From NCBI GenBank assembly GCA_964016885.1, contig OZ024742.1, positions 71,796,001 to 71,860,000 of the forward strand: a stretch of DNA of 64,000 nt, in the 5' to 3' direction. A program made the translations under genes and the position numbers. The first letter of the stretch is position 1. Every line of letters starts with the position of its first letter. Shown here piece by piece: positions 19,153-20,140 of the stretch. The stretch comes from Eledone cirrhosa. Its lineage: Eukaryota. The notes under the pieces are model-generated. The model ran no database searches. It was not told where the DNA came from and worked only from the letters and a program-made list of their open reading frames with translations.

Positions 19153-19925
19153 AAAAACAAATAACGAAACGAAATTAAATTTCGTTTCGTTTGTAACTCA
19201 CTTTTGTATGACTGACGCTTAAACAATTAAGTTAAAAATGTACATCCACATATGTATACTGAAATACTAGTATGCATATGAATACACACACGTGTACATA
19301 TGTAGATGTACCGAGTTTTTCACTGGACACTTTACTGTGAGTGTCCAGCTATTCTGTATGTAAACACACAGACAAACCGGTTTTTAGAGTCATACTGGTT
19401 TTCGAGGAAACACCTTTCCTCTATTCTCCAGAAAGCCAGACAGGAATATTGGACTAGTTTCGATGTTGTTACATCTCATCAGCAATATTTACCTATCTTC
19501 CGGCCTTTCTAGAGAATCGTAAAAGCACATATGGTTATATGCTTTTTCTATGAAAATTAGTAGTGGGCAGACTAATTTGCATAGAGCGTGAGTACGTACC
19601 GGTTCAGCGGAGACGATAAAAACAAATAACGAAACGAAATTAAATTTCGTTTCGTTTGTAACTCACTTTTGTATGACTGACGCTTAAACAATTAAGTTAA
19701 AAAATGTACATCCACATATGTATACTGAAATACTAGTATGCATATGAATACACACACGTGTACATATGTAGATGTACCGAGTTTTTCACTGGATACTTTA
19801 CTGTGAGTGTCCAGCTATTCTGTATGTAAACACACAGACAAACCGGTTTTTAGAGTCATACTGGTTTTCGAGGAAACACCTTTCCTCTATTCTCCAGAAA
19901 GCCAGACAGGAATATTGGACTAGTT
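19153..19925 (-). mobile_element. Retrozyme-like tandem repeat, family A (465-nt unit, ~1.7 copies)
   Basis: Unit starts at 19153 and 19618; contains a canonical hammerhead; flanked by (TA)n. Confidence 0.8.
19445..19489 (-). ncRNA. Type I minimal hammerhead ribozyme
   Basis: Minus strand: AATATTG CTGATGA GATGT aaca ACATC GAAA CTAG TC CAATATT. 7-bp stem I, 5-bp stem II, palindromic ACTAGT stem III, GUC cleavage triplet. Confidence 0.92.
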
Positions 19926-20140
19926 ATATTGGACTTAATTATATATATATAAGCCAGACAGGAATATTGGACTAGTTATATTGGACTTAATTATATATAT
20001 ATATATATATATATATATATATATATATATATATATATATATATATATATATATATATATATATATATATATATATATATATATAAATGAAAGGTATATA
20101 TATATATATATATATATATATATATATATATATATATATA

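What the first reader, a model, noticed from the sequence alone, without database searches (positions are those of the whole stretch)
19153..19990. Family A: 465-nt highly structured unit with a textbook hammerhead
The hammerhead at 19445-19489(-) matches the consensus at every core position. Stem I can extend (tctccagaaag..gacagg / cctatc..ctttctagaga). The unit has further hairpins (aacgaaacgaaatt/aatttcgtttcgtt; ctggacact/agtgtccag; aaaagcacata/tatatgctttt). The 5' end of the array on the ribozyme strand (~19925) falls within ~8 nt of the predicted GUC cleavage site of the next hammerhead, with a short local re-duplication at 19950-19990. This fits copying from a ribozyme-processed RNA.
Basis: partly seen in the sequence, partly recalled or inferred. 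Interest (0 to 1): 0.82.

Follow-up and report, generated by a model that had tools for sequence, protein, structure and literature searches.

The report
Hammerhead retrozyme in an animal genome
This is a young copy of an abundant 466-base non-coding jumping element carrying a self-cutting hammerhead RNA motif, a kind already known from many animals, and some sister copies show one-strand A-to-G clusters that look like RNA-editing scars written back into DNA.

Summary
On the minus strand, 1.66 copies of a 465/466-nt non-coding unit (19153-19925) sit in a (TA)n microsatellite. They carry one complete type I hammerhead, cut between 19452 and 19451. The core is perfect, but stem III is one A-U pair plus a palindromic loop, the newt/axolotl type that cuts best as a dimer. 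The element is a copy of an abundant, tandem-forming family: a metazoan non-LTR retrozyme, probably mobilised by Penelope-like elements (PLEs). Two broken Hydra-clade-like PLEs, a (TA)n-targeting clade, lie in the window. The end seen to recur is the 3' end, 300 nt downstream of the cut, flanked by (AT)n in 6 contigs. Those 8 nt do complete stem III for a long-range hammerhead. DNA reads of probably one or two sister copies show clustered A-to-G changes on the ribozyme strand, resembling ADAR hyper-editing before reintegration; this is unverified. Cleavage, circles and expression are untested. New member of a known kind.

The parts
19153..19617 (-). 3'-most complete unit, 465 nt, non-coding; its 3' end (19153) is the recurrent terminus
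   Evidence: the equivalent end (19616-18) is flanked by (AT)n in 6 contigs of X1
19618..19925 (-). upstream 5'-truncated copy, 308 nt, 99.35% identical
19439..19497 (-). type I hammerhead: stem I 19488-19483 with 19451-19446, 3-nt bulge 19491-19489, outer stem I 19497-19492 with 19444-19439, core 19482-19476 and 19461-19458, stem II 19475-19462, palindrome ACUAGU 19458-19453, predicted cut between 19452 and 19451
19425..19515 (-). extended stem I; in the cut monomer the same strands pair the 5' end to the 3' end
19918..19925 (-). 8 nt kept upstream of the next cut bond (19918|19917); holds the whole stem III palindrome
19926..19939 (.). 10-nt stutter of the cut-site region plus 4 nt at the 5' junction
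19951..20002 (.). exact 52-bp duplication of 19899-19950, junction and TA spacer included; probably slippage after insertion (inferred)
19163..19191 (-). perfect 13-bp hairpin 10 nt inside the 3' end (second copy 19628-19656); candidate signal for the start of reverse transcription (inferred)
19144..19151 (.). short TA run at the left junction (target remnant); one C at 19152 belongs to neither side
19992..20085 (.). (TA)n target microsatellite at the right junction
16584..19143 (+). neighbour, not part of the unit: decayed Hydra-clade-like PLE (ORF remnants about 16584-18050), presumed 3' region with a degenerate hammerhead core at 19046-19092; Family A abuts it tail to tail
   Evidence: the 3' limit is inferred
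58023..62095 (-). distant neighbour: near-complete broken Hydra-clade-like PLE with an 840-bp inverted 5' copy and TA runs on both sides; an example of the candidate mobilising clade

Best explanation
It is a copy of a metazoan non-LTR retrozyme family: a non-coding, hammerhead-bearing unit that borrows a PLE reverse transcriptase/endonuclease. SHOWN in sequence: unit, hammerhead, strand, (TA)n target, abundance, tandem junctions, a recurrent 3' end. INFERRED steps: (1) tandem arrays are transcribed on the minus strand. (2) Hammerheads cut mainly as double hammerheads, two ACUAGU palindromes forming stem III and stem I closing a whole monomer. This releases 466-nt monomers, some probably ligated to circles, and also RNAs cut once whose last hammerhead is left intact. 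(3) A (TA)n-targeting PLE, most likely Hydra clade, nicks a TA microsatellite and starts cDNA inside the RNA about 300 nt downstream of a cut, just past a perfect hairpin. (4) The RT copies 300 + 466 nt, crosses the cut junction by 8 nt and stutters there before joining the TA target. The template could be a once-cut RNA with a jump onto the still-paired 5' product, or a circle; the data do not separate these. I put about 0.55 on the cut site having placed this 5' end and about 0.5 on Hydra being the partner. The confidence below is for the retrozyme identity with PLE-type mobilisation.
For: Hammerhead beyond chance, with the weak-helix-III form described for axolotl HHR_Amex1 (PMC7229834). 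No ORF: longest ATG frames 29 and 68 aa; GC 36%. Monomer z about -10. X1: 1147 contigs laid, 983 of them at least 95% alike. Tandem joint 'goes back 466' in 210 reads from 26 starts in X22, and one self-looped 495-nt contig in X4. (AT)n-flanked ends at 19616 (6 contigs) and about 19691 (3 contigs) match two internal RT start sites in a PLE (PMC11167929). Two stem pairs vary on both sides at similar counts in X22: 19463/19474 (148 and 167 first-mate-plus reads) and 19433/19507 (128 and 136) (phase not shown). The long-range hammerhead cutting at 19918 costs 2.1 kcal/mol over the minimum, against 7.4 for the local monomer. Window PLEs carry RWR, DKT, CxCx5C, YIG, CxxC and CxH, the Hydra marks, and that clade inserts in (TA)n (PMC8557442). 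T>C at 34 places against A>G at 10 in X22, p 1.4e-4 as counted.
Against: No cleavage, circle or transcript was shown. This locus has only one complete hammerhead. Both catalytic folds are minor in the computed ensemble (0.003 and 1e-6, no tertiary terms). C17 reads as U in 335 of 524 first-mate-plus X22 reads and about 14% of X1 depth. No 5' end near the cut among the loose ends shown. No clear sequence likeness between the unit and the window's PLE 3' regions (80 and 56 of 100 shuffles score as high). The T>C excess is not significant in X1 (8 v 5, p 0.27) or X4 (4 v 1, p 0.18), and the X22 count comes from few loci selected by a restriction site. Of 12 paired-position variants outside the two matched pairs, 3 break the predicted pair. 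Only 1 of 9 Xenopus retrozyme dimers cleaved in vitro (Li et al. preprint). X1 may be the source sample.
Confidence: 0.82

Rival explanations
1. It is the detached terminal repeat (pLTR) of an autonomous PLE not present in this window. The 1.66 copies are an ordinary 5'-truncated partial tandem made from uncut RNA, and the end near the cut site is chance.
For: PLE insertions are 5'-truncated partial tandems with hammerheads in the pLTR (PMC8557442). Cleavage was dispensable for one PLE in vitro. 24 of 57 Xenopus retrozyme families match known TEs, nearly all PLE termini. The 5' end is one case.
Against: The unit runs into itself, not into an ORF, in the window, in X22 and in X4. It keeps a loop 1/loop 2 layout and a long outer stem I, unlike the minimal PLE hammerheads (PMC6155905). 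It shows no likeness to the two local PLE 3' regions. This rival grades into the best explanation as an origin.
Confidence: 0.11
2. It is a DNA-level satellite or foldback element amplified by unequal crossover or DNA rolling circles; the hammerhead is vestigial.
For: Tandem organisation. Both strands fold well. The C17 change is common. Other foldback elements lie nearby.
Against: Dispersed copies share a 3' end against (AT)n. The core is intact and two stem pairs vary on both sides. There is a one-strand A-to-G bias in X22. The unit has no terminal inverted repeats.
Confidence: 0.04
3. It is the genomic footprint of a viroid-like circle that replicates RNA to RNA and is occasionally reverse transcribed.
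For: Size and folding. A-to-G changes fall in A runs predicted to be unpaired, which suggests a fully double-stranded phase. X4 holds a single monomer-length self-looped contig with its own alleles.
Against: A hammerhead occurs on one polarity only. The fold is branched, not a rod. The family is abundant in a run with genome-scale contigs and tandem in a DNA library. Inverted copies could supply the duplex: one opposite-strand joint, 5 reads from 3 starts. A self-looped contig also arises from a DNA tandem array, and the kind of run X4 is not on record.
Confidence: 0.03

Closest known systems
Metazoan non-LTR retrozymes (Cervera and de la Pena 2020, PMC7229834; parts 2-4 of 6 read; supplement not readable)
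   Same: Type I hammerhead in a short, low-GC, non-coding, highly paired tandem unit; many copies; PLEs in the same genome. Helix III as in axolotl HHR_Amex1 (one pair, palindromic tetraloop).
   Different: 466 nt is just above the 150-450 bp quoted. This locus has one complete hammerhead. A fixed 3' start site, a (TA)n target and A-to-G-scarred genomic copies are not described in the parts I read. Cleavage and circles are not shown here.
Animal retrozymes as non-autonomous PLE derivatives (Li, Clavereau and Pollet, bioRxiv 10.64898/2026.07.22.740005; parts 1-3 of 5 read; supplements not seen)
   Same: Unit length inside their 51-972 bp range; co-occurrence with PLEs.
   Different: Their 'active' definition needs two consecutive complete hammerheads, which this locus lacks. 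No pLTR parent found here. Their sample was 31 vertebrates, 3 insects and 1 coral.
Hydra-clade PLEs (Craig et al. 2021, PMC8557442; passages, section 11 and supplement rows seen)
   Same: (TA)n target, hammerhead, partial tandem with 5' truncation.
   Different: Family A has no ORF. In the window's Hydra-like copy the 3' end is 17 nt past a degenerate cut site; in Family A it is 300 nt past.
Poseidon PLE of Anolis (Frangieh et al. 2024, PMC11167929; parts 1-2 of 4 read)
   Same: Reverse transcription starts at two internal sites downstream of the hammerhead cut, at a stem-loop, into AT-rich DNA.
   Different: That element is autonomous, its two sites are 30-40 nt apart (about 75 here), and no RNA reads ended at its cut site.
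Rfam Hammerhead_HH9 (RF02275)
   Same: Full-length alignment of core, stem I bulge and stem II.
   Different: 33.7 bits against a threshold of 52; stem III is 5 nt shorter.

Membership tests
Metazoan non-LTR retrozyme | type I hammerhead with intact core | tested here: met
Metazoan non-LTR retrozyme | short head-to-tail unit of a few hundred bp | tested here: met
   465/466 nt; tandem joint in X22 and X4; 16 nt above the 150-450 range of PMC7229834, inside the 51-972 range of Li et al.
Metazoan non-LTR retrozyme | multi-copy family in the genome | tested here: met
   1147 contigs laid in X1 with many variants and other flanks; no copy number can be read from it
Metazoan non-LTR retrozyme | non-coding, GC under 50%, highly self-paired monomer | tested here: met
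Metazoan non-LTR retrozyme | no PBS or PPT | not tested
   no tRNA set of the host was at hand
Metazoan non-LTR retrozyme | target-site duplication longer than 4 bp when present | tested here: inconclusive
   both flanks are TA runs
Metazoan non-LTR retrozyme | self-cleavage of the transcript | not testable with these tools
   folding only
Metazoan non-LTR retrozyme | expression as monomeric linear and circular RNA | not testable with these tools
   no RNA run could be laid; contigs cannot show strand or circles
'Active' retrozyme locus as defined by Li et al. 2026 | [quoted passage not shown] | tested here: not met
   one complete hammerhead at this locus; I file it as a family copy, not as an active dimer by that definition
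Autonomous PLE | ORF with RT and GIY-YIG endonuclease | tested here: not met
pLTR of a PLE | sequence homology to a PLE terminus | tested here: inconclusive
   none to the two PLE 3' regions in the window; the rest of the genome was not available
Plant LTR retrozyme | type III hammerhead | tested here: not met
   open helix is stem I
Viroid-like circle with ribozymes on both polarities | ribozyme on each strand | tested here: not met
   one hammerhead, minus strand only; Rfam E-value scan shows no other ribozyme in the unit
Rfam Hammerhead_HH9 | score at or above 52 bits | tested here: not met
   33.7 bits
Hydra-clade PLE (the two neighbours, not Family A) | RWK-type motif, DKT, CxCx5C linker, C-terminal GIY-YIG, CxxC and CxH | tested here: met
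   all in the 59088-61217 copy (RWR for RWK); CxCx5C, YIG, CxxC and CxH in the 16584-18050 copy; no tree was built
Hydra-clade PLE (the two neighbours, not Family A) | canonical hammerhead | tested here: inconclusive
   only degenerate cores near 58043-58130 and 19046-19092; neither passes the scan

The most novel reading that the evidence does not exclude
The retrozyme RNA passes through a long double-stranded phase in the germline and is hyper-edited by ADAR. Edited molecules are then written back into (TA)n sites by a Hydra-type PLE enzyme that starts at a fixed hairpin and falls off at the double-hammerhead junction. Genomic copies would be a fossil record of RNA editing and of the retrozyme RNA intermediate, and ADAR a mutator of the family. 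A bolder extension, that the duplex is an RNA-templated replication intermediate, is not excluded but I give it 0.05 or less.
Probability: 0.33. Interest if true: 0.7.

Novelty: new member of a known kind. Interest (0 to 1): 0.42.

Why it matters
The class is known. Its life cycle is mostly hypothesis: which enzyme moves animal retrozymes, where reverse transcription starts, and whether the template is cut, circular or uncut. A young, abundant family with a fixed 3' end, a (TA)n target and a candidate PLE clade in the same window makes these questions testable by mapping copy ends. If the A-to-G clusters are real, they give DNA-level proof of an RNA intermediate and of its strand. They would also bear on the suggestion in PMC7229834 that editing may explain retrozyme circle heterogeneity. 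I did not find this in print (listings only; the library lacks most subscription papers). Searches listed no cephalopod retrozyme paper.

Tried and rejected
No whole genome is held, so termini could not be mapped genome-wide. Run search: no RNA holder listed, which says nothing on expression. 20 of 24 rows hold the stretch or a part, in 16 studies. I laid 4 of the 24 runs, on 471 of the 838 bases. X21 (same sample as X4, share 0.00) proves nothing. X22 loose ends and read ends were rejected as termini: they fall on the AATT sites and on one variant site at 19356-19361, so they are restriction ends (enzyme names MluCI and SphI are recalled and inferred). X1 depth was lower between the cut and the 3' end (ratio 0.78, 9 v 16 bins, p 0.04; 5 edge or boundary bins dropped). 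That fits 1.66-unit copies, but the tool says depth is no copy number, so it is not used. Exact-pattern scans found nothing in metagenome contigs or viral contigs. The microRNA hits are hairpin noise far below threshold. The relaxed hammerhead scan missed the known site through a length bound and was replaced. The best local score of the unit against seven neighbouring segments was to family C (4 of 100 shuffles as high), not taken as homology. An 8-nt match between the 5' junction and the ribozyme strand at 19697 could be a tiny inverted copy but is too short and AT-rich to count. The host taxon was not established: searches gave no organism, and 'octopus-like' rests on my recall of C2H2 arrays and repeat types. 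My first ADAR-context test (14 of 14 sites, p 2e-4) included one inferred site and left out one listed site, so it was redone. Earlier-finding look-ups by place, sequence and the first word set were blank.

Full report
Setting. The window is animal DNA: C2H2 zinc-finger arrays, LINE and mariner remnants and many (TA)n runs. It looks octopus-like to me, but that is recall; searches gave no organism, and no genome is held.

Observation. 19153-19459 recurs at 19618-19925 with one indel and one substitution, so the element is 1.66 copies of a 465/466-nt unit and is young. The minus strand carries a type I hammerhead with every core base in place and a predicted cut between 19452 and 19451. The same scan finds none in 200 shuffles of the window. 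Rfam HH9 aligns end to end at 33.7 bits, under its threshold of 52. The cut-to-cut monomer folds about 10 standard deviations below shuffles, with its two ends paired through the extended stem I. It is 36% GC and has no ATG frame over 68 aa. The left flank is a short TA run and the right flank a 94-bp TA run.

Stem III is one A-U pair over a palindromic loop. PMC7229834 describes this form in axolotl: 6% cleavage in an hour as a monomer, much more as a dimer. The array's 5' end lies 8 nt upstream of the next cut, so a cleanly cut linear RNA would not have carried those bases. They do, however, hold the whole palindrome. With them the locus transcript can form a long-range hammerhead that cuts at 19918, at 2.1 kcal/mol above the minimum, against 7.4 for the local monomer fold; both are minor in the ensemble without tertiary terms. 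The junction repeats the cut-site region in a 10-nt stutter, and a 52-bp exact duplication then doubles it.

Other copies. I laid 4 of 24 listed runs on one permuted unit, 19290-19760. X1, which may be the source sample, gave 1147 contigs. X22, a restriction-site DNA library with the same species label, gave a 'goes back 466' joint in 210 reads from 26 starts. X4 gave one self-looped 495-nt contig. In X1, six contigs start at 19616 and three at about 19691 with (AT)n before them. These are 3' ends on the ribozyme strand, 300-302 and 227 nt past the cut, and the first is the window copy's own end. A random end would fall within 8 nt of the cut 3.6% of the time. Two stem pairs of the hammerhead region vary on both sides at similar counts in X22, without shown phase. 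Against function, C17 often reads U, and 3 other paired variants break their pair.

A-to-G clusters. In X22, T>C occurs at 34 places and A>G at 10 (p 1.4e-4 as counted; not significant in X1 or X4). About 112 reads share T>C at 19381-85, 19393, 19399 and 19400, and about 70 reads on the other side of the restriction site share it at 19331-33 and 19350. On the ribozyme strand these are A-to-G. Of the 14 T>C rows with at most 4 starts in 19300-19499, 13 have U or A on the 5' side, against 27 of 53 other As (p 0.004). 5'-G depletion alone is not significant (p 0.12), and with A runs collapsed p is 0.044. ADAR hyper-editing avoids a 5' G (PMC5625713, passages). Limits: 40 of 91 rows were shown, the reads come from probably one or two loci, reads of one fragment share a start, the restriction site itself selects T>C copies, X1 contigs do not show the cluster (contigs drop rare variants), and A-to-G also keeps pairs as G-U. 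So this is a lead, not a result.

Likely partner. Two broken PLEs lie in the window. The copy at 58023-62095 has RWR, DKT, CxCx5C, YIG, CxxC and CxH, an 840-bp inverted 5' copy and TA flanks. These are the marks of the Hydra clade, which inserts in (TA)n (PMC8557442) and has an Octopus member. A more decayed copy at about 16584-19143 ends right beside Family A, with a degenerate hammerhead core at 19046. Family A shows no homology to either 3' region, so the partner is inferred from the shared target only. Naiad PLEs also prefer (TA)n.

Mechanism. The best fit is a non-LTR retrozyme. Arrays are transcribed and cut as double hammerheads. A PLE enzyme nicks (TA)n and starts cDNA at a fixed internal site just past a perfect hairpin, as shown for the Anolis PLE (PMC11167929). 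It copies 300 + 466 nt and ends 8 nt across the next junction. A once-cut linear template explains the stop but needs a jump for the 8 nt; a circle explains the 8 nt but not the stop; chance truncation of uncut RNA remains about as likely as both together. Rivals are a detached pLTR (0.11), a DNA-level repeat (0.04) and a replicating viroid-like circle (0.03).

Verdict. A real feature and a new member of a known kind (PMC7229834; Li et al. preprint). This locus is not an 'active dimer' by the preprint's rule. Earlier scan notes report similar elements in other animals (unchecked). Interest 0.42: the class is ordinary, but the recurrent 3' start site and the possible editing scars make the retrozyme life cycle testable.

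Noticed in passing
X22 reads on window 19331-19400: Clustered T>C (A-to-G on the ribozyme strand) in DNA reads of probably one or two sister copies; ADAR-like context.
   Followed up: partly
window 58023-62095 (-): Near-complete broken Hydra-clade-like PLE with an 840-bp inverted 5' copy (97.6%), TA flanks and a degenerate hammerhead 17 nt from its 3' end.
   Followed up: partly
window 16584-19143 (+): Decayed Hydra-clade-like PLE; hammerhead-like core at 19046-19092 with a long stem II but no U before the cut position.
   Followed up: partly
window 21520-22189, related copy 26199-26640: Foldback element (545-bp arms, 85%) with hammerhead-like cores at 21563(-) and 22015(+), beside TA runs; neither core passes the full scan.
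   Followed up: partly
window 22154-23781: Nested inverted and direct duplications ending in (TA)n, in the pattern of PLE tandem/inverted insertions; no hammerhead core found.
   Followed up: no
window 20085-20098 and 22208-22221: The same 14-nt motif follows a (TA)n run twice, 2.1 kb apart; unexplained.
   Followed up: no
window 20140-21182: Tc1/mariner transposase remnant between TA runs (weak DDE_3 and HTH_Tnp_Tc3_2 hits).
   Followed up: no
run X4: One self-looped monomer-length contig, depth 9.7, with alleles rare or absent in X1; a second run of the same sample holds next to none of the words. Could be a circle, a uniform array or trace DNA.
   Followed up: partly
X22 joint 19395 to 19624: Opposite-strand joint in 5 reads from 3 starts: possibly an inverted copy, a source of long double-stranded RNA.
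   Followed up: no
window 6012-7571, 30300-31500, 39730-40190, 46577-47851, 63199-63999: Cluster of C2H2 zinc-finger arrays; the four with long frames are on the minus strand, as is the hammerhead. Whether the element is intronic is unknown.
   Followed up: no
window 5455-5640, 10119-10301, 33982-34131, 35391-35577, 51396-51587, 53141-53323: A roughly 185-bp dispersed repeat at 92-98% identity, six copies in 64 kb; not identified.
   Followed up: no
window 13525-16352 (+): Long LINE-type frames with endonuclease and RT domains.
   Followed up: no
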